41,572 nt of DNA from positions 1-41,572 of the IMG/VR virus record IMGVR_UViG_3300010201_000003; one strand, given 5' to 3'. Origin of the DNA: a virus. Its lineage: Duplodnaviria > Caudoviricetes. The notes under the pieces were generated by a model. It saw only the letters and a program-made list of their open reading frames with translations. It was not told the origin of the DNA and searched no databases. How positions within the stretch are numbered: position 1 is the stretch's first letter; every line of letters begins with the position of its first letter. The position numbers were made by a program, and so were the translations under genes. This document shows positions 1,323 to 40,231 of this stretch, piece after piece.

Positions 1323-1400
1323 CGGAGCGTGGCGCAGCCCGGTTAGCGCACTAGTCTGGGAGACTAGGGGTCGAAGGTTCAAATCCTTTCGCTCCGACCA
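1323..1400 (+). tRNA. tRNA-Pro (anticodon GGG), prophage integration site
   Basis: CGGAGCG/CGCTCCG acceptor stem, anticodon arm CTAGT-CTGGGAG-ACTAG, T-loop GGTTCAAATCC, encoded CCA end. Confidence 0.97.
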
Positions 1401-12940: not shown

Positions 12941-13882
12941 GTGAGCCGTTGGTTTCGAATGTATGACGACGTGATCAATGATCCGAAGGTGATGCGGCTT
13001 GAGCCCGCGTTACGGTGGCATTGGGTCGCCGTGCTGTGCGTCGCGTCGAAGGGCGGCGGCGTCGTTCCGGAGGCCGGTGATGTGGCATTCGCTCTGCGGA
13101 TGGGAGAAGGCGAGGCGGCTGCAATTCTCTCGTCCCTGCTCGCCGCTGGGCTCCTCGATCGCGGCGAGGGCGGCGCCCTAATCCCGCACAATTGGGGCGA
13201 GAGGCAATACCAGTCGGATAGCTCGGCCGAACGGATGCGCCGTCACCGTGACAAGCAGCGAGCGGCGAAGGCCTCCGGTTGTGACGTTGCAAGTGACGTC
13301 ACCGGTGACGTTTCGAGTGACGGTCGAGGTGACGTCACAGGTGACGGAAGTTGTTACGTCACAGAGACGGCGCAGAACAGAACAGAAGCAGAGACAGAGA
13401 AGAAAGATTCTCGGTCGATCGTGTCCGATCGCCCGGCGCGTGCGCCTTCTCGGTTCGATGAGTTCTGGAAGGCGTACCCGCGGCGCGACGGACCTAACCC
13501 GCGGAAGCCGGCGGAAACGAAATTCGAGGCACTTGTGAGGACCGGTCTCGATCCTCAGACGCTTATCGACGCCGCGCGGAAGCTCGCGAGCGACGAAACC
13601 GCGCGCGGCAACATCGGAACGCGGTTCATTCCGCAGGCGCAGACCTGGCTCAATCAACAGCGCTGGTCGGATCACGCCGCGGTTGCGGCGCTGCAGGGGA
13701 TCGAGGGCGGCGGGATGACGGTTGAACAGGCGCTCGCGCAGTTCGCGCGGTTCGGCGTTTGGTCGCGCCACGCGCCTTGTCCGGAGCCGGGGAGCCTCGG
13801 TTGCACGATCCCGGCTGAACTGCTGGCGAAATACGGCATCGCTCCTGATGGGTCGCGCTCGCGGCCCGGTGAGGCGGCCTAG
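12941..13882 (+). CDS. Phage replication initiator (lambda O-like organisation)
   Basis: N-terminal WFRMYDDVINDPKV, HNWGERQYQSDSSAERMRRHR; internal iterons; C-terminal FDEFWKAYPRR..FIPQAQTWLNQQRW. Confidence 0.82.
   Translation: MSRWFRMYDDVINDPKVMRLEPALRWHWVAVLCVASKGGGVVPEAGDVAFALRMGEGEAAAILSSLLAAGLLDRGEGGALIPHNWGERQYQSDSSAERMRRHRDKQRAAKASGCDVASDVTGDVSSDGRGDVTGDGSCYVTETAQNRTEAETEKKDSRSIVSDRPARAPSRFDEFWKAYPRRDGPNPRKPAETKFEALVRTGLDPQTLIDAARKLASDETARGNIGTRFIPQAQTWLNQQRWSDHAAVAALQGIEGGGMTVEQALAQFARFGVWSRHAPCPEPGSLGCTIPAELLAKYGIAPDGSRSRPGEAA
13281..13369 (+). repeat. Iterons of the putative phage replication origin
   Basis: GTGACG at 13281, 13293, 13305, 13317, 13329, 13341 and GTTACG at 13353 (exact 12-bp period), including GTGACGTCAC palindromes, followed by a purine-rich tract. 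Confidence 0.75.
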
Positions 13883-28673: not shown

Positions 28674-30167
28674 ATGGCCGGAATTCTCGACCTTCTGAAC
28701 GGGGCGCAAGGCGGATTGCTCGATTTCTTGCGGAACAATGCGCTCAACCAAGCGATGCCGAGCGGGCTCGCCTCGGATATGGCGGACTACGGTACGCCGC
28801 CGTTGTCGCTGGCCGGCACCGCAATGCCGAAGCCGGCCGCGCCGCAGATCGCCGAAGCCAATCAGCCGAGCCCGCTCGACACCGCGCAGTGGCCGGCGGG
28901 GCCGATCGGTGCGCCGTCGAATGCAAACGCGGAAATGCCGTCAATCGCAAAGCCGGCCCCGTTCTCGCTCGGCGGAATGCTTGCGGCGCCCGCGGCGCCG
29001 GCCGGAGGCGGCGCGCCCGCGACTACAGATTCGGCCGCACCGGCGTCGCCTGGCTTTGGCGATCGGCTTTCGGCGTCTCTCGCAAGCGTCCAGCACACCA
29101 AAGGTCTAATCCCGGCCTTGGTAAACGGTGTAACCGGATTTGCGACGGGGCAGCGGACGGATGAGTCCGGCCGGGCGCAGAGCGCGAATGAACGCTGGCT
29201 GGCGTCGAACGGTGTTGACGCTGGAACGCTTGCCGCAGTGCGAGGCGACCCCGAGCTGACAAAAAAGCTTGTTCAGCAGACGATCACGCAGCGTCCTTTG
29301 ATCGCAGCATTGAAAGCGCGAGGGGCTTCTGACGCTGATATCGCTGCGGCAACTTCGAACCCTGAGTTCCTGAAAGCAGTGATCGCCAATAATGTGAAAG
29401 AGCAGGACAACTACCGGCCAGCGACGGCGCAAGAGCGCGCAGCTGCGGGAATGACCGGCGACAACAATACGCCGATGTTCGTAAATCAGACGACGAACGA
29501 ACCGAAGTTCGGGCCCGCGCAAACCAACGTCAACGTCTCGACGGAAAAAACCGGCCAAGCCGAGCTCGCGAAAACAGCCGTCGAAGAATACAAAAACGCT
29601 CAACTCTCATCCAGGGAGGCCCAGAAGCGGATTTCAATGTACGATGCATTTGAGAATGCTGCGCAGGGCTTCACGCCGGGCGCAACTGCTGAAATGCGCC
29701 TGACTGCCAAGCGCTATTTGAAGGACGCTGGACTGATCAAGGGTGACGACGTTCCGGATGGCGAAATCCAACAGATGATCGGCCGCCAGCTCGCTATCCA
29801 CGCGCAGCCGAAGGGCCAAGGCGCCGTCAGCAATTACGAGCGCGAGTTGTACGCCTCGGCGCTTCCCAGCATGATCCAGAGCCCAGAGGGACTGCGGCAG
29901 GCAATCGCGATCAACCGTAAACTTGAACAGTTCGATATGAAGGTCGCGCAAATCTGGCGTGAGAGCGCAGCGGCCAACCGCGGAATTCCGAACTATCTCG
30001 ACGTTCAAAACAAGATCGCAGACCTCGGATCGCCGTTATCTCCGTCCGATATGGCCGCGATCCAGCCGGCCGGTCGTCCGGCGCCGGCCGCGCCAGCGCC
30101 AACCGCCGCAAGTGCGCCGGATCGCGCCGCGATCGAGGCTGAGATCAAGCGACGGGGGTTGAAATGA
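28674..30167 (+). CDS. DNA ejection/internal virion protein 2
   Basis: MAGILDLL start; GQGAVSNYE motif; Ala/Pro-rich. Confidence 0.72.
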   Translation: MAGILDLLNGAQGGLLDFLRNNALNQAMPSGLASDMADYGTPPLSLAGTAMPKPAAPQIAEANQPSPLDTAQWPAGPIGAPSNANAEMPSIAKPAPFSLGGMLAAPAAPAGGGAPATTDSAAPASPGFGDRLSASLASVQHTKGLIPALVNGVTGFATGQRTDESGRAQSANERWLASNGVDAGTLAAVRGDPELTKKLVQQTITQRPLIAALKARGASDADIAAATSNPEFLKAVIANNVKEQDNYRPATAQERAAAGMTGDNNTPMFVNQTTNEPKFGPAQTNVNVSTEKTGQAELAKTAVEEYKNAQLSSREAQKRISMYDAFENAAQGFTPGATAEMRLTAKRYLKDAGLIKGDDVPDGEIQQMIGRQLAIHAQPKGQGAVSNYERELYASALPSMIQSPEGLRQAIAINRKLEQFDMKVAQIWRESAAANRGIPNYLDVQNKIADLGSPLSPSDMAAIQPAGRPAPAAPAPTAASAPDRAAIEAEIKRRGLK

Positions 30168-31825
30168 CCGACTTGACGAAGCTGTCCGACGCCGAACTGA
30201 TGACGCTGTACCATCAGTCGTCAGCTCCTACGCCATCGGCGTCCGCAGCTCCGATGGATCTGACGAAGCTTTCGGACACGGATCTGCTCGCGCTACGCGA
30301 CGCTCATCCGAGCGTCACATCAGATGTGGTGAAGTCGGGCGCTTCGGGGCTGGCGCGAGGTGCGCTTGAACTCGCTGGTTTTGTTCCGAAGGTGTCAGCA
30401 ATCGCACACGATGCCGCGAACAAATACGTGATTGATCCGGTGCTGGATGCGACATTCGGGAAGCCGAAGGCCACCGCCGAGCCGTCGATCGACATCAACA
30501 AGCTGGCCTCACCCGATAGCCTTCAGCGCGGCGTTGAGCAGGTTACCGGCAAGTTCTACGAGCCGAAGACGACAGCTGGAAAGTTCGTGCACAGTGCAGC
30601 CGAAGCTGTTCCGATGGGCATTGCCGCGCCCGGAAGCATGGCAGGCCGGATGGCTTCGGCCGTTGGATCAGGCCTGGCTAGCGAGGCGGCAGGCCAGACC
30701 ACTGAGGGCACGAAATGGGAACCTTGGGCGCGTATCGTTGGCGCATTCGCTGGCGGCGTCGCTCCGATGATGGCCGGCCGCGTCGTCACGCCGCTGCCGA
30801 GCAATCCGGCGCGTCAACGTCTTGTCGATGTGCTCAACGACGAAGGAGTAACGTCGCTGACCGCGGGCCAGCGCACCGGCAACAAATCCCTGCAATACCT
30901 CGAAAGCGCGGCCAGCACGGCACCTGGCGCCGGCGGCGGGGCGACGCGCATTCAGGAGGAAGGGCAGCGTCAGTTCACGCAAGCCGCGATGCGGCGCGCC
31001 GGGCAGGGGTTGCCTGACGCAGCCCCGGAGGTGCTGGCGCAGAATAACCAAAGGCTCGGGCAGGAGTTTCGTGATCTGTCGGCCCGCAACAATCTCGCGC
31101 CGGACAATCAGTTCGTCGATGACATCGTCAATGCGGCCCGCAACTATCGCCGCGTGCCGGACAGCCAACAGCGTCAGATGGTGCAAGGATACATCGACGA
31201 CATCATTGGTCACGTGAACGCCGGCAACATGCCTGGGCCGCAATACCAGGAAATGCGTTCGCGCCTCTCCCGCCAGGCCAACAGCCTGCGCCAGAGCGAT
31301 CCGACGCTGTCGGAGGCGCTGCGCGACATGCGCAACGCGCTTGATGGCGCTATGGGCCGCTCTATTTCGCCGCAAGATCAGGCCGCATGGCAATCGGCGC
31401 GGCGCGAATATGCGGCTCAGAAGACGATCGAGAAGGCGGCGTCTCGGGCCGGAGAGGCGACCGCGGAAGGTCAGATTGTGCCGGCAAATCTGCGCAATAC
31501 GGTCGCAGCAGAGAACCGCGGAGCGTACGCTCGCGGCGAGGGTCCGTTCTCAGAGCTGGCCCGCGCAGGATCTGCGATCATGGCGCCGCTTCCGAACTCT
31601 GGCACCGCTCAGAGGCTAAACGCCTTCAATCTGCTCAACCAAGCGACGCTAGGAGTTGTCCCGGCGGTCGCGGGGCGCGTCGTCATGTCTGCCCCTGTTC
31701 AATCCTGGCTCGCCAACCAGGCGCTCGCCGCTGCGATGCGGGCTCCGGAGACTCAACGGAGAGCTGTATTTCTCGCCTTTCAGGAAGCAGCGCGGAATAA
31801 GCTCCTGGCGCCAGTTCAAGACTGA
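30164..31825 (+). CDS. DNA ejection/internal virion protein 3
   Basis: Duplicated DLTKLSDxxL N-terminus, YEPKTTAGK, LTAGQRTG, PNSGTAQR. Confidence 0.72.
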   Translation: MTDLTKLSDAELMTLYHQSSAPTPSASAAPMDLTKLSDTDLLALRDAHPSVTSDVVKSGASGLARGALELAGFVPKVSAIAHDAANKYVIDPVLDATFGKPKATAEPSIDINKLASPDSLQRGVEQVTGKFYEPKTTAGKFVHSAAEAVPMGIAAPGSMAGRMASAVGSGLASEAAGQTTEGTKWEPWARIVGAFAGGVAPMMAGRVVTPLPSNPARQRLVDVLNDEGVTSLTAGQRTGNKSLQYLESAASTAPGAGGGATRIQEEGQRQFTQAAMRRAGQGLPDAAPEVLAQNNQRLGQEFRDLSARNNLAPDNQFVDDIVNAARNYRRVPDSQQRQMVQGYIDDIIGHVNAGNMPGPQYQEMRSRLSRQANSLRQSDPTLSEALRDMRNALDGAMGRSISPQDQAAWQSARREYAAQKTIEKAASRAGEATAEGQIVPANLRNTVAAENRGAYARGEGPFSELARAGSAIMAPLPNSGTAQRLNAFNLLNQATLGVVPAVAGRVVMSAPVQSWLANQALAAAMRAPETQRRAVFLAFQEAARNKLLAPVQD

Positions 31826-31963
31826 ATAAACGATCGCAGATACAGCGATTGAAGCCAGCAAAGCCAGTATCCCGACGCCGTAACCGCCGCCCCACCAGCG
31901 ATATTCAACGTCGCTCGCGATCACCGCGAAAAATACGCCCGCTTGAAGGATCTTCCACCACAT
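31649..31963 (-). CDS. Putative membrane protein (2 TM), convergent with and overlapping the ejection gene
   Basis: MWWKILQAGVFFAVIA..GVGILALLASIAVSAIVYSVL; follows the lipoprotein gene. Confidence 0.55.
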   Translation of the reverse strand: MWWKILQAGVFFAVIASDVEYRWWGGGYGVGILALLASIAVSAIVYSVLNWRQELIPRCFLKGEKYSSPLSLRSPHRSGERLVGEPGLNRGRHDDAPRDRRDNS

Positions 31964-31971
31964 CGGGAAAT

Positions 31972-32268
31972 CTATCGAACCCGTCCCAGGAATTCTTCAC
32001 CGCGCATTTTCCGGCATGCCCAAGAGAAAGCGCGCGTAGGAGTAGCGGCATTCATACGATTGAAATAGCTAGTCGCTTCTGAAATGCAGGCATCGTAGGA
32101 CGTGCTTTGTCCAACATACCACGCATCCTGAGGGCCATCATGGTAGCCGACTTCGGCCCGGTATGCGTAGTAGCCGGGTAAATAGTCGCACCCAGCTAGT
32201 CCGGGAACGGCACCAAGGACGGCCAAAATAGAAGTCAACCTGACGGTGCGACGGCCGGTCCTGTTCAT
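31972..32268 (-). CDS. Putative lipoprotein (superinfection-exclusion candidate)
   Basis: Basic N-terminus, hydrophobic stretch, lipobox LAG-C; two further Cys; ATGA-coupled to the RHH gene. Confidence 0.7.
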   Translation of the reverse strand: MNRTGRRTVRLTSILAVLGAVPGLAGCDYLPGYYAYRAEVGYHDGPQDAWYVGQSTSYDACISEATSYFNRMNAATPTRAFSWACRKMRGEEFLGRVR

Positions 32269-32438
32269 TTCTGCAAGAATCCGTTCTTCTTAAGATAATC
32301 AGTCAAGACTTTCTCGATTAGCGATGACAGTGACCGAGTGTCTTCGACGGCGGCCTTTTCAGCCGCCTCCTTAACAGAGGCGGGAAGGCGGACGGAAACA
32401 GGCAGTGGCTTCGGATTTGGTGAGGGAGGGCGACCCAT
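32265..32438 (-). CDS. Ribbon-helix-helix (Arc/Mnt/CopG-like) repressor, 57 aa (below ORF-track cutoff)
   Basis: MGRPPSPNPKPLPVSVRLPASVKEAAEKAAVEDTRSLSSLIEKVLTDYLKKNGFLQK*: beta strand VSVRL then two helices with RSLS. Confidence 0.85.
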   Translation of the reverse strand: MGRPPSPNPKPLPVSVRLPASVKEAAEKAAVEDTRSLSSLIEKVLTDYLKKNGFLQK

Positions 32439-32445
32439 TTTTCAC

Positions 32446-32485
32446 ATTAAATGTAGTTGACAAACATGGTGACTACATTTAATAT
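32446..32485 (+). promoter_or_regulatory. Sigma70 promoter overlapped by a 12-bp inverted-repeat operator
   Basis: TTGACA (32457-62), 17 nt, TAATAT (32480-85); ATTAAATGTAGT (32446-57) / ACTACATTTAAT (32472-83). Confidence 0.82.
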
Positions 32486-32497
32486 ACCAAACATCGC

Positions 32498-32537
32498 GGC
32501 CCGGCAAGGTGCTTCCAACACCAAGCCGAGCCTAACC
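32498..32537 (+). promoter_or_regulatory. Leader hairpin resembling a C4-type antisense target site
   Basis: GGC-C-CGGC-AA-GGTG[CTTCCAA]CACC-AA-GCCG-A-GCC-TAACC, between the promoter and the first gene. Confidence 0.5.
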
Positions 32538-32556
32538 AGAACCAAGGATCGTACCC

Positions 32557-33132
32557 ATGGCCCAGGCTGACGCTGCCAATAGCACATCACGACGACATTT
32601 CCTCTCGTTTCTCGGCGCGGCTGCGGCCACGGCGGCCGGAGCGGTCGCGGTGGCAGCGCCGCCGGCCGAAGATGCGATGGGCACGCACACCGTGCGTACC
32701 TCCTCAGGCGATCCTGAGGCGCCTTCCGCCGACTGGAATGCGCTGTACGACGAACTGCGGGAGCTGTTCGAGGTCTATCAGGGCCACAAGGCGCTACGGG
32801 ACGAGCGCCACGACGCATTCACCCGCTGGGCCAAGCGCAACCCGCCGCCCAGCGATTTGGACCGGCTGGTGCAGCGCGACTATCAGGAGCGCTACGAGAC
32901 GGCGCTTGCACAGTGCGAGTTCGGAGCATTGAAGGCCGCCGAGGACAAAGCGTTCAGCGATTACTACGAGGCAGTCAAGAGGACCGCCCGCACGCCGGTC
33001 AAGAACCTCGCTGACGCTCGCGGCAAGGCCGCGTGCAGCTTGATCGACAACGATACCGGGCCGATCCATAGGCTCCTGTTGAAAGAGCTTCGCGCTATTC
33101 ATCTACACGATATCCACAGTGTCAGCGCTTGA
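32557..33132 (+). CDS. Hypothetical protein with twin-arginine-like N-terminus
   Basis: AAGGA RBS; SRRHFLSFLGAAAATAAGAVAVAA followed by a helical domain. Confidence 0.75.
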   Translation: MAQADAANSTSRRHFLSFLGAAAATAAGAVAVAAPPAEDAMGTHTVRTSSGDPEAPSADWNALYDELRELFEVYQGHKALRDERHDAFTRWAKRNPPPSDLDRLVQRDYQERYETALAQCEFGALKAAEDKAFSDYYEAVKRTARTPVKNLADARGKAACSLIDNDTGPIHRLLLKELRAIHLHDIHSVSA

Positions 33133-33179
33133 TTGAGCGACCGATTGGCCGCCGAGTGATCACCTAATGATCGTAGGTT

Positions 33180-33209
33180 TCCGCCTCTGGCAGGGCGGAT
33201 GTGAACGCG
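33180..33209 (+). promoter_or_regulatory. a1/b1-type target of the downstream C4-like RNA
   Basis: Hairpin TCCGCC/GGCGGA displaying CTGGCAG, then GAACGCG (33203-09); both are exact complements of loops in 33221-33295. Confidence 0.7.
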
Positions 33210-33220
33210 AGATTCGAGGG

Positions 33221-33295
33221 CTTCAATGAGCCCCCGGTTTCGTGAAAGCGAACCCGCGCGTTCCGGGCCTGCCAGGGCCGGGGCGCTCATTGAAG
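33221..33295 (+). ncRNA. C4-like antisense/regulatory RNA
   Basis: Outer stem CTTCAATGAGC../..GCTCATTGAAG; TTCGT-GAAA-GCGAA GNRA hairpin; CCCG[CGCGTTC]CGGG hairpin; CCTGCCAG segment. Confidence 0.7.
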
Positions 33296-33305
33296 GACTA
33301 AGAAA

Positions 33306-34058
33306 ATGGCGAAGAAGGAAGAAGCAACCACGATCACGATCCAGCCACTCAAGCGTGGATCGGTGCGGCTCCGGATCATCGGAGTAACACCGCTTTTCCA
33401 AAATCGAATGGCGAGCAAGGCCAAGCATCAGTTGTTGGTCGGAGGTCAGAAAAAAGGCAAGGCGGATCGCGCCGCGATCAAGCACGATCCGATCTCCGAG
33501 TTTCGCGACAGCGCCGAAATTCTCCCCGGTGGCCCGACCGCGCTTGGCCTGCGGGTCGTTGCTGTGAAGGCCGCGATGGCGACGGCCGCGCTTGAAACGC
33601 CCGGCCTGACCAAGACGTCGGCGCAACGGTTGCTGTTCATGCCGAATGATCTGGTGCCGCTCTACGGCACGCCACAACTGCGTATGGACGTCGTCCGCTC
33701 CGCTGACATCAACCGCACGCCGGACATTCGGACGCGTTGTTACTTGCCGAAGTGGGGCGCCGAGATCGCGATCCACTTCATCACGCCGCAGCTCTCGGTG
33801 CAGGGCGTCGTGTCGCTGCTCTGTAATGCGGGCATTCTGGTCGGCGTCGGCGACTACCGGCAGGAAAAGGGCAAGGGCGCGTTCGGGTCATTCCGCGTGC
33901 TCGGTGAAGGTGAGGACGATCCGGAGTGGAATGACCTCGTTGAGAACCACGGGCGCGACGCGCAGGAAGTCGCACTCAGCGATCCCGAATTGGCTGATAC
34001 CGACACCGCCGATCTGATGGAGCATTTTCACCGGGAGGTGCGGCGGCGAGCTGCGTAG
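33306..34058 (+). CDS. RAMP/Cas7-like RNA-binding protein, putative effector of the GGC-NN array system
   Basis: N-terminal strand VRLRIIGVTPL and C-terminal Gly-rich loop GVGDYRQEKGKGAFGSFRV, as in RAMP proteins; the array starts at its stop codon. ORF is solid, fold is inferred. Confidence 0.7.
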   Translation: MAKKEEATTITIQPLKRGSVRLRIIGVTPLFQNRMASKAKHQLLVGGQKKGKADRAAIKHDPISEFRDSAEILPGGPTALGLRVVAVKAAMATAALETPGLTKTSAQRLLFMPNDLVPLYGTPQLRMDVVRSADINRTPDIRTRCYLPKWGAEIAIHFITPQLSVQGVVSLLCNAGILVGVGDYRQEKGKGAFGSFRVLGEGEDDPEWNDLVENHGRDAQEVALSDPELADTDTADLMEHFHREVRRRAA

Positions 34059-34238
34059 GCAGCGTTTGGCACGGCAGGCGGGGCAAGGCATGGCCCGGAC
34101 GGGCGAGGCGAGGTGCGGCCAGGCAGGCAAGGCGAGGAAAGGCTGCGCAAGGCGTGGCGTGGACAGGCAAGGCAGGCATGGCATGGAAAGGCCGGGAGGG
34201 GCACGGCCTGGCAAGGTCCGGCGTGGCGAGGCCGGCTT
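34058..34238 (+). repeat. (GGH-NN)n pentamer array 1, putative guide-RNA array
   Basis: 33 pentamers, mostly GGC+NN with some GGA/GGT; 4-nt units at 34073, 34122, 34171 (GGCA) and 34230 (GGCC) give blocks of 49, 49 and 59 nt. Confidence 0.9.
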
Positions 34239-34277
34239 GAACAGCAAGCGGATCCAACCTCAGTGGAGAAACCAAGA

Positions 34278-34787
34278 ATGACGAAGTTTACGAAGGAACT
34301 ACGCCAGCAGATCGTCGAAGATTTTGCGCGGCGTCACAACGGACAGTACGACCCCGCGCTGTTTCTGCGCGAGGTCAAGGACACGGGCGAGAGCCATCCG
34401 GCGTTCGGGTGGTTCGAGTGGGACCAGAGCAAGGCGGCGCAGGAACACAATCTGTGGCAGGCGCGCGCCTTCGCGAAGGATCTCCGGATCAAGTTCGAGG
34501 TCGAGGAGATCAGCAGCGGCAAGTCGATCACGGTTACGACCGAGGCGCCGCTTGTGATGTCGCCGACCGCTGGCCGCCAGGATGGCGGCGGATACGTCCG
34601 CTTCAATCCCGACGATCCGGCGCATCAGGCGGAGCTCTGTCAGCAGGCGGCAGTGGCGCTGCGGTCCTGGCTCAAGCGATACCAAGCTGCGCTGATTCAC
34701 GCCGGCTACGGCGTGAAGATGGTTGAACAGATAGCCGCGTCTCTTGATGCGGTGAAGGTGAATGCTGCGACCGACGTCGCAGCATAG
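34278..34787 (+). CDS. Hypothetical partner protein between the two arrays (169 aa)
   Basis: GGAG RBS, ATG 34278; HPAFGWFEWDQSKAAQEHNLWQAR motif. Confidence 0.8.
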   Translation: MTKFTKELRQQIVEDFARRHNGQYDPALFLREVKDTGESHPAFGWFEWDQSKAAQEHNLWQARAFAKDLRIKFEVEEISSGKSITVTTEAPLVMSPTAGRQDGGGYVRFNPDDPAHQAELCQQAAVALRSWLKRYQAALIHAGYGVKMVEQIAASLDAVKVNAATDVAA

Positions 34788-34795
34788 TTGAGTGT

Positions 34796-34903
34796 GGCAC
34801 GGAGCGGCAGGCGCGGATAGGCGCGGTGCGGCGAGGTAAGGCGCGGCGGGGAATGGCCGGCGCGGTGATGAATTGCAGGGCGGCGTGAGGCTCGGCAAGG
34901 CAA
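34796..34903 (+). repeat. (GGH-NN)n pentamer array 2
   Basis: 4-nt units GGCA (34806) and GGCC (34855), each followed by nine pentamers (49-nt blocks); the last block has three degenerate triplets. Confidence 0.88.
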
Positions 34904-34905
34904 CG

Positions 34906-34940
34906 GACGGCGGCCATGCGTGGCCGTCGTCTCGTTATTT
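34906..34940 (+). terminator. Hairpin/terminator closing array 2
   Basis: GACGGCGGCCA-TGCG-TGGCCGTCGTC, an 11-bp stem with one G-U, followed by TCGTTATTT. Confidence 0.65.
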
Positions 34941-34952
34941 GTCGGAGGACAC

Positions 34953-35624
34953 GTGGACGCGAATTCGATCTATCGAGGACTACTTAATCGCGGCTATGCG
35001 CCGGTGCAGGCCGCCGCGATATCAGGCAACGTTCTGCAAGAGAGTGGCGGAAATCCTGGCGCTCTGAATGCCAAGGAAGGTGCGCACGGCCTGTTGCAGT
35101 GGCGTCTTGATCGCTGGCAGGGACTGCAGGATTTCGCAAATTCGCGCGGAACGTCGCCGAATGACCCTAATACGCAGCTCGACTATATCGGGGCGGAACT
35201 CGGCGGCGCCGAGAAGAAGTCGGCCGCGCCGTTCTTTGCGGCCCAAGACCTCGCTTCGGCAAATGCGGCTCTCAAGAGCTACATCAGATATGGCGATGAT
35301 AGCCAAGCGACGCGACTGGCCAACGCCCAAGGCTTCCTGAAAGACGGCGCAGCGGCAGCAATGGCGCCGATGTCGATTGCTGGGCCTGCGGCGGCCGGTG
35401 GTGAGCCGCCCGCTGCGCCGGTTGCGTCGCAGCCTACACCGGCTGCGACGCAACCGGCGGCGGCTCCTGGCGCGGCGCTCTCCGCTCCAGCCGCGCCGTC
35501 GATCACGCCACAGCAGATCGAACAGCTTGCGGCAGTGCCGCAGGGCCAAAACATCTTGCCGGCGCCGCGGATCTTCGCGCCTCGGAAGGTTGCGCCGTTC
35601 TCTTTGGGTGGGGGGTATTTATGA
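34953..35624 (+). CDS. Virion-associated lysozyme (phage tail lysozyme family)
   Basis: AAAISGNVLQESG..GAHGLLQW..DRW..QLDYI; GGAGG RBS before GTG 34953; Ala/Pro-rich tail. Confidence 0.82.
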   Translation: MDANSIYRGLLNRGYAPVQAAAISGNVLQESGGNPGALNAKEGAHGLLQWRLDRWQGLQDFANSRGTSPNDPNTQLDYIGAELGGAEKKSAAPFFAAQDLASANAALKSYIRYGDDSQATRLANAQGFLKDGAAAAMAPMSIAGPAAAGGEPPAAPVASQPTPAATQPAAAPGAALSAPAAPSITPQQIEQLAAVPQGQNILPAPRIFAPRKVAPFSLGGGYL

Positions 35625-40036: not shown

Positions 40037-40086
40037 GTCTGGGAGACTAGGGGTCGAAGGTTCAAATCCTTTCGCTCCGACCATTT
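40037..40086 (+). repeat. attR core (50 bp; duplicated tRNA-Pro 3' end)
   Basis: Identical to 1354-1403; lacks the tRNA 5' half. Confidence 0.96.
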
Positions 40087-40231
40087 ATCGGCCTTCGGTA
40101 TTTTGTTCATCGAGTGCGGCGCGAGTTATGGCGCGCTTTATTCTGCCTCGGCTCCAGCCATAGAATTTAGGCGGGTCGCGGCCGCCAGGTCCAACACTCC
40201 TTATCGAGACGAGCTTTAGAGGGCGCACGAC

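What the first reader, a model, noticed from the sequence alone, without database searches (positions are those of the whole stretch)
34796..34903. Array 2 independently repeats the same 4+9x5 = 49-nt grammar
Parsed as GGCAC GGAGC [GGCA] GGCGC GGATA GGCGC GGTGC GGCGA GGTAA GGCGC GGCGG GGAAT [GGCC] GGCGC GGTGA TGAAT TGCAG GGCGG CGTGA GGCTC GGCAA GGCAA, then an 11-bp hairpin. Block length matches array 1 but the NN content is different, so it is not a recent duplication and length appears to be under selection. The distal block has degenerate triplets (TGA, TGC, CGT) yet keeps the 5-nt register, reminiscent of decay at the old end of CRISPR arrays (inference).
Basis: seen in the sequence. Interest (0 to 1): 0.85.

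Follow-up and report, generated by a model that had tools for sequence, protein, structure and literature searches.

The report
Phage VIPR guides targeting sibling phages
This repeat is the second guide array of a VIPR system (a CRISPR-related, RNA-guided gene silencer published in 2026) on a prophage; its first block matches, by the published skip-one-base code, a cell-wall-enzyme gene of closely related phages, which it would likely silence, while the 49-base block length is only the commonest size, not a rule.

Summary
The parse and the hairpin are real. The tract is array 2 of a VIPR locus: a RAMP-fold gene (33306-34058; top PDB hit SUSP1 Vipr), array 1, an accessory gene, array 2 and a terminator. 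The one-base slip is the published 'staggered' vrRNA layout, and this scan met it before on other DNA.

The 49-nt length is not fixed. Array 1's third block is 59 nt, and 32 of 206 orthologous blocks have 9 units.

New here are predicted targets. Block 1, read by the 1-nt-skip code, has 5 exact hits in IMG/VR; 4 lie in one phage transglycosylase gene, with the skip on the wobble base. Array-1 block 1 has 27 of 27 hits in one gene. One near-sibling phage lacking vipr carries both sites; this prophage has other alleles in both slots.

The distal block has no target found, and a near-identical prophage has lost its register there. It may be decaying, but strict CRISPR-like polarity is not supported. 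No RNA evidence was obtained. Verdict: new member of a known kind.

The parts
32457..32485 (+). sigma-70-like promoter upstream of the cassette (predicted)
   Evidence: TTGACA-17-TAATAT, 10 of 12; 1 found vs 0.8 expected in shuffles, so weak on its own
32557..33132 (+). 191-aa ORF of unknown function, probably co-transcribed
   Evidence: no Pfam or PHROG hit; a 29% homologue in vipr-bearing record G306
33306..34058 (+). vipr: 250-aa stand-alone RAMP (Cas7/Csm3-like fold)
   Evidence: top hit SUSP1 Vipr 36pp_D, E 0.024 and 0.0076; Foldseek Csm chains, E about 2e-4; VIA Z 8.7, rmsd 3.8, 150 aligned; R144, D183, R185 invariant in 47 sequences
34068..34233 (+). array 1: leader, slips at 34073, 34122, 34171, 34230; blocks of 9, 9 and 11 units
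   Evidence: block 1 has 27 of 27 exact hits in one gene; block 2 matches 17/18 in G307; block 3 no target found
34278..34787 (+). 169-aa accessory gene (vap position)
   Evidence: a homologue follows vipr in all L001-L034 rows seen (rows L017-L018 cut from view); phrog_15946 (71); fold unassigned
34796..34809 (+). array 2 leader (two units) and first 4-nt slip GGCA
   Evidence: GGCAC is the commonest leader unit in relatives
34810..34854 (+). array 2 block 1: predicted guide against the peptide-coding stretch AYAADNAGI of a phage transglycosylase gene
   Evidence: 4 of 5 exact hits; phrog_4067 transglycosylase
34855..34858 (+). second 4-nt slip GGCC, boundary between guides
   Evidence: the target does not continue in register into block 2
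34859..34903 (+). array 2 block 2: 8-9 units, three non-GG triplets, no target found, possibly decaying
34905..34942 (+). 3' hairpin and T-rich tail (terminator-like; candidate vrRNA tail)
   Evidence: GC hairpins follow array 2 in L001, L003, L004
34962..35624 (+). this phage's own gene in the slot that block 1 targets in relatives: lysozyme domain instead of transglycosylase domain, shared C-terminal part
   Evidence: PF18013; 81% over 88 C-terminal residues with the L036 target protein
28674..30167 (+). this phage's own gene in the slot that array-1 blocks 1 and 2 target in relatives; lacks both sites
   Evidence: the next gene (30164) is a PHROG DNA ejection protein

Best explanation
This is the second staggered guide array of a prophage-borne VIPR system: each block between two 4-nt slips is predicted to be one guide, and block 1 matches 18 of 18 read bases in a transglycosylase gene of closely related phages, which the Vipr-RNA complex would likely bind and silence. 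Shown here: RAMP fold, array anatomy, the gapped matches, their codon phase, and the absence of the sites from this prophage. From published work on other VIPRs: one Vipr subunit per repeat grips GGY, the NN pairs read two of every three bases of duplex DNA, and binding represses transcription. Inferred: the cassette is expressed from its own promoter to the terminator; the slips delimit separate RNPs; binding inside the rival's late genes blocks virion or DNA-entry proteins; and this phage avoids its own guides because it carries other alleles in the targeted slots. The distal block is likely a guide that has lost its target.
For: Vipr; G-loop and thumb residues align with SUSP1 R138, D177, W178, R179 named in 10.64898/2026.04.26.720927. 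Block 1 of array 2: 4 of 5 exact IMG/VR hits in one gene, sense strand, skip on wobble, 4 distinct DNA sequences. In 301 Bradyrhizobium genomes, 5 of 8 hits (pattern with leader, up to 2 mismatches) are the same gene next to the tail-fibre gene. Array-1 block 1: 27 of 27 hits in one gene, 24 distinct DNA sequences. Record G004, found through array-2 block 1, also holds the array-1 block-1 site at 18/18; 0 of 1000 unit shuffles reach that. In 438 kb of records not chosen by any guide, array-2 block 1 and array-1 block 2 each score 17/18 (1 of 300 and 0 of 300 shuffles), while skips 0, 2, 3 give 13-14. G004 is a near sibling (integrase 98%, terminase 98%, portal 96%, cI 92%) without vipr. Orthologue guides hit the same module: L051 at GTQYLAHF in the same transglycosylase gene (16/16 in G004, G308, G319; own copy 14/16); L004 twice in the tail-fibre gene (18/18 and 17/18 in G321; own copy 16/18 and 15/18). 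Best self match in the window is 14/18 or 15/22 (23, 86).
Against: No expression, processing or binding data for this locus. Two of five window blocks (array-2 block 2, array-1 block 3) have no target in the collections searched. Sequence similarity to SUSP1 Vipr is weak (E 0.024 and 0.0076), and no Vipr structure appeared in the fold-search lists, so the fold search shows RAMP, not Vipr specifically. Array-1 block 2 also has exact 18/18 hits in two low-GC contigs with no long sense-frame ORF (L093, L110), and array-2 block 1 has one unrelated exact hit (L035), so single exact hits arise by chance. Most orthologue guides found no target: 9 of 268 passed, including the window's own and chance-level rows. 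One L051 guide scores 18/20 on its own phage, tied with the best non-self hit. Self-avoidance rests on few guides.
Confidence: 0.9

Rival explanations
1. The array stays one long RNA. Slips are not cut sites but register breaks that cap one Vipr filament and start the next, and the leader unit(s) pair with the target across the first slip.
For: The leader dinucleotide AC matches the codon in register upstream of the target, with the 4-mer skipped, in 3 of 4 first guides with a target (window array 1, window array 2, L051; not L004). In L037 and L038 both leader units match. ACn codons are 6% of codons in this module (86). No processing enzyme is evident in the locus. The main text of 10.64898/2026.04.26.720920 names only the ribozyme and single-vrRNA layouts as confirmed by sequencing.
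Against: Post hoc, n = 4, two of them in the same gene; GGCAC is a near-constant leader. At internal slips there is no match across the boundary. The fig. S18 legend speaks of processed vrRNAs (figure not seen).
Confidence: 0.3
2. One reading: a fixed 49-nt unit added at one end and decaying at the other, as in CRISPR arrays.
For: 3 of 4 closed blocks in the window are 49 nt; 9 units is the mode among close relatives (8 of 21); L007 and L228 have private 5' blocks and share the last block with L006; the distal block is further damaged in run X1.
Against: 174 of 206 blocks are not 9 units; private blocks also sit mid-array; degenerate triplets occur in blocks that still match; the closest relatives share no block with the window.
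Confidence: 0.1
3. The repeat is a DNA-level feature or low-complexity filler, and the matches are chance.
For: GC-rich gapped patterns give chance hits (L035, L040-L049, L093, L110).
Against: Convergence on single genes of related phages, wobble phase, skip-1 specificity and shuffle controls; arrays follow vipr across orthologous loci.
Confidence: 0.02

Closest known systems
VIPR systems with staggered vrRNA arrays (10.64898/2026.04.26.720920, main text and fig. S18 legend)
   Same: vipr plus accessory gene on a provirus; GGY/NN 5-mers; successive guides offset by one base; 1-nt-skip targets in other phages with the skip on the wobble base; no self-target.
   Different: In the text I read, targets are given for the SUSP1 and P. 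fulva clades and for types III and V, not for staggered arrays, and staggered processing is not named as confirmed. Here the predicted targets are late virion-module genes of near-sibling temperate phages. Data S1-S4 and the figures were not seen and may list this clade.
Type II VIPR of phage SUSP1 and P. fulva prophage (10.64898/2026.04.26.720920, .720927, 10.64898/2026.10.15.759431)
   Same: Thumb and G-loop residues align; same code; inter-phage targets, including other VIPR-bearing phages.
   Different: There each vrRNA has its own structured tail of about 40 nt; here blocks abut with 4-nt slips and only the last has a hairpin. Their targets are a satellite or lysis-lysogeny regulators.
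Class 1 CRISPR-Cas (Cas7/Csm3 backbone)
   Same: RAMP fold; array of guides.
   Different: No repeat-spacer array; no other cas gene recognised among the 30 ORFs scanned; gapped rather than contiguous match; no strict polarity found.

Membership tests
VIPR | stand-alone RAMP (RRM core, thumb, G-loop) related to Vipr | tested here: met
   (top hit SUSP1 Vipr, weak E)
VIPR | minimal locus: vipr plus accessory gene, no CRISPR array, on a phage or provirus | tested here: met
VIPR | tandem GGY/NN repeats, about 9-16 per guide, NN variable | tested here: met
   (8-12 units in 140 of 206 blocks)
VIPR | targets found by the 1-nt-skip rule and not by other skips; skip on wobble; non-self | tested here: met
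   3 of 5 window blocks
VIPR | structured 3' tail | tested here: inconclusive
   hairpin after array 2 only; none after array 1 (z -0.09); may be only a terminator
VIPR | vrRNA expressed, bound by Vipr, represses transcription | not testable with these tools
   the three RNA runs laid have no reads over the cassette
VIPR, staggered-array layout | successive guides offset by a 1-nt overlap | tested here: met
   4-nt slips (GGCA 139, CGCA 29 of 206); targets stop at internal slips; definition from the fig. S18 legend only
VIPR type I-VII | Vipr phylogeny and vap identity | not testable with these tools
   reference sets (data S1, S4, fig. 5A) not available; vap fold unassigned
CRISPR-Cas | direct repeats with contiguous spacers and a cas operon | tested here: not met

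The most novel reading that the evidence does not exclude
In this clade, staggered VIPR arrays work as a kin-discrimination weapon among near-sibling temperate phages. Guides aim at the virion and DNA-entry module, VIPR-bearing phages target each other, and this pressure drives the allele and domain swaps seen there (lysozyme for transglycosylase, alternative ejection-slot genes, single amino-acid changes inside the owner's own site). The 4-nt slip is read as a protein-level boundary across which the leader still pairs.
Probability: 0.3. Interest if true: 0.7.

Novelty: new member of a known kind. Interest (0 to 1): 0.45.

Why it matters
The system and the slip layout are published, so the finding as written is not new. 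The locus is useful because it supplies what the text I read lacks for staggered arrays: natural guide-target pairs showing that each slip-delimited block is a separate guide, a near-sibling target phage carrying two of the sites, and self alleles that differ inside the site. This makes three open points testable: how staggered arrays are divided into guides, whether VIPR excludes close kin, and how guides are gained and lost. A compact multi-guide array without per-guide tails would also be of practical interest.

Tried and rejected
Target of array-2 block 2. The 8-unit exact scan of IMG/VR gave 10 loci in several unrelated groups (GC 38-64%), none homologous to the window and none extending to the ninth unit. 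With up to 2 mismatches: 0 of 5 handles; 30 of 301 genomes, scattered, best 17/18 in L138, against 10 reversed-pattern control hits. One such locus, L048, lies antisense in what looks like a terminase gene (label recalled), with the skip off the wobble. All rejected as chance.

Target of array-1 block 3. 0 exact hits for units 1-9 and for units 3-11; 0 of 301 genomes at up to 2 mismatches. Array-1 block 2, 8 units: 32 loci, 30 treated as chance, 2 homologous (L103, L111) kept.

Self-targets. None above 14/18 or 15/22 with the 1-nt skip.

Skip-3 count. The 27, and the single skip-3 hit, are read as matches to unmasked array remnants (not inspected row by row).

Tail-fibre scan. It gave only 5 loci.

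Accessory protein. No fold assignment (best VIA Z 5.0, helical hairpins only); Atlas neighbours are unnamed viral clusters; no Pfam hit.

RNA. No RNA holder listed. Three RNA runs have zero depth over 31800-35059, one having reads only on a related prophage's genes further on, so they are uninformative.

Literature. 'vrRNA'+'staggered' gave one work; 'VIPR'+'vrRNA'+'Bradyrhizobium' gave 0 (93).

Parser. It can merge missed slips, so the longest block lengths are unreliable.

Full report
Observation. The longest run of GG at period 5 is 10; none of 5000 dinucleotide shuffles reaches that and the rest of the window reaches 4. The hairpin is real (z -4.3) and scores as an intrinsic terminator. 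Slip spacings in the window are 49, 49 and 59 in array 1 and 49 in array 2, so the 'same grammar' holds for 3 of 4 closed blocks.

Context. The window is a temperate phage with integrase, cI-like repressor, terminase, P22-like portal, capsid, tail and lysis genes, and a tRNA-Pro at 1323-1400. The closest named Vipr homologues are from Bradyrhizobium, so the host genus is inferred. Between a DNA-ejection gene (30164, PHROG E 4.5e-32) and a tail lysozyme gene sits a cassette: promoter-like site 32457, a 191-aa ORF, a 250-aa ORF, array 1, a 169-aa ORF, array 2 and the terminator.

The 250-aa protein. Its best match among solved chains is SUSP1 Vipr, both alone (E 0.024) and as a 47-sequence profile (E 0.0076); both are weak. 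Its model (pLDDT 83) matches Csm3/Cas7 RAMPs by Foldseek (E about 2e-4) and by VIA-align (Z 8.7, rmsd 3.8, 150 residues). R144, D183, Y184 and R185 align with SUSP1 R138, D177, W178 and R179, which grip the GGY motif; R144, D183 and R185 are invariant. It has 1085 homologues. The 169-aa neighbour follows it in the orthologous loci seen and has no assignable fold.

What is published. I read the whole bioRxiv text of 10.64898/2026.04.26.720920 and passages of its supplement PDF, but not the figures or data S1-S4, which could list this clade and its targets. I read parts 1-2 of 6 of 10.64898/2026.04.26.720927, parts 1-3 of 8 plus a term search of 10.64898/2026.10.15.759431, and passages of 10.64898/2026.10.21.760802. 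They describe vipr plus vap, GGY/NN guides, the 1-nt-skip code with the skip on the wobble base, transcriptional repression, and 'staggered' arrays whose guides overlap by one base. Two earlier notes of this scan reached the same family on other genomes; I saw them after my own tests.

Is 49 nt a rule? No. From 107 vipr loci (with redundancy), 206 unique blocks closed by canonical 4-mers have 8, 9, 10, 11 and 12 units in 21, 32, 31, 31 and 25 cases; the rest spread from 1 to 30, the extremes partly parser error. Among loci with Vipr at least 80% identical, 8 of 21 have 9 units, three being the window's own. A first pass on 32 loci gave 19 of 132. Length is held to a range around 9-11 units.

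Targets. Array-2 block 1, written with one skipped base per unit, has 5 exact hits in IMG/VR. Four lie in one homologous gene, sense strand, skip on the wobble base, at AYAADNAGI; the fifth is unrelated. The gene is a transglycosylase (phrog_4067) whose C-terminal 88 residues are 81% identical to the window's gene right after array 2, which has a lysozyme domain instead. In 301 Bradyrhizobium genomes the pattern with the leader (up to 2 mismatches) hit 8; 5 are this gene beside the tail-fibre gene and 3 are unrelated; the reversed control gave 4 hits. Array-1 block 1 has 27 exact hits, all at GKMPREDAQ in one family, as 24 distinct DNA sequences. Array-1 block 2 matches KEKWKVVQT at 17/18 in G307, in the same gene slot; it also has two exact hits in low-GC contigs that I treat as chance. 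None of the 30 records with exact sites for the two first blocks has vipr by this query; 12 of them are at least 90% complete. VIPR-bearing relatives do carry near matches: G308 17/18 and G307 16/18 for array-2 block 1.

Controls. Record G004 came in through array-2 block 1 and also holds the array-1 block-1 site at 18/18; 0 of 1000 unit shuffles reach that. In 438 kb of records not chosen by a guide, array-2 block 1 and array-1 block 2 score 17/18 (1 of 300 and 0 of 300 shuffles); the other three blocks are at background, and skips 0, 2 and 3 give at most 14/18 for the two. Over 117 blocks against 2.27 Mb, matches of at least 90% numbered 6 for skip 1, 1, 0 and 1 for skips 0, 2 and 3, and 0 for reversed or shuffled guides; two of the six are by construction of that set.

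Self and kin. G004 is nearly the same phage (integrase 98%, terminase 98%, portal 96%, endolysin 98%, cI 92%) but has other genes in the two targeted slots and an anti-repressor where this cassette sits. The window's best self match is 14/18 or 15/22, never at the orthologous site. Orthologue guides aim at the same module. L051's array-2 guide matches GTQYLAHF, 57 nt from our site in the same gene, 16/16 in three records and 14/16 in its own copy. L004's two guides match overlapping tail-fibre sites at 18/18 and 17/18 in G321 and at 16/18 and 15/18 in its own copy. A fourth, L051 array-1 block 2, ties self and non-self at 18/20. Most orthologue guides have no target in what I hold (9 of 268 passed).

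What the slip does. At internal slips the unit across the boundary does not continue the target (3 of 10 bases over five cases, by eye), so blocks are separate guides. At the first slip the leader's AC matches the upstream codon in 3 of 4 cases. This is post hoc and may be chance, but it keeps open that the slip is a bulge and not a cut. Nothing here shows processing.

The distal block. No target was found. An independent DNA run holds a near-identical prophage with 7 substitutions and 1 deletion over 31800-34930. Two lie in this block: a further scaffold change at 34870 and a 1-nt deletion at 34889 that breaks the register (p about 0.005; one contig, error not excluded). Decay of this block is therefore plausible. 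As a general rule it is weak: 26% of all units in relatives are non-GG, such units still match targets, and arrays that share blocks (L006, L007, L228) differ at the 5' end and internally while sharing the last block.

Verdict. A new member of the VIPR family with the published staggered layout. The 49-nt rule fails; the added value is the set of predicted natural targets in sibling phages and the pattern of self-avoidance. Silencing, processing and the effect on rival phages are inferred from other VIPR systems, not shown here.

Noticed in passing
G004:C1:32849-33709 (in L146) vs window 32457-34942: The sibling phage has an anti-repressor (Ant) gene where this phage has the VIPR cassette; L051 has an ORF of similar size and C-terminus next to its cassette. 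The slot looks like an exchangeable cargo site.
   Followed up: partly
L004:5385-5483: Two adjacent blocks match overlapping sites of one tail-fibre gene, in reverse order (block 1 downstream of block 2).
   Followed up: partly
window 34165: Run X1 differs at one read base of array-1 block 2 (CA to CG), which would lower its match to the G307 site.
   Followed up: no
L228 array block 10 vs L238 and L250: A guide matches DCALFLWVT at 17/18 in other vipr-bearing contigs; the peptide looks like an MT-A70 methyltransferase (label recalled, untested); may be chance.
   Followed up: no
L006:5616-5743 (-) and L007:5774-5882 (-), minus-strand coordinates: A second array on the opposite strand, upstream of vipr.
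   Followed up: no
L207-L220: 14 of 401 Bradyrhizobium genomes have distant Vipr-like matches (26-33% identity, E 4e-10 to 8e-4), possibly other VIPR types.
   Followed up: no
window 13281-13346: 12-nt tandem repeat (5.5 copies) inside ORF 12941-13882.
   Followed up: no
window 1323-1400 and about 40037-40110: tRNA-Pro at the left end; reads with loose ends at 40037-40110 suggest the partial tRNA copy of the other attachment site (inferred).
   Followed up: no
window 34905-34942: A terminator-like hairpin lies in the late-gene direction just ahead of the lysozyme and tail-fibre genes, so late transcription would need read-through or a separate start (inference).
   Followed up: no
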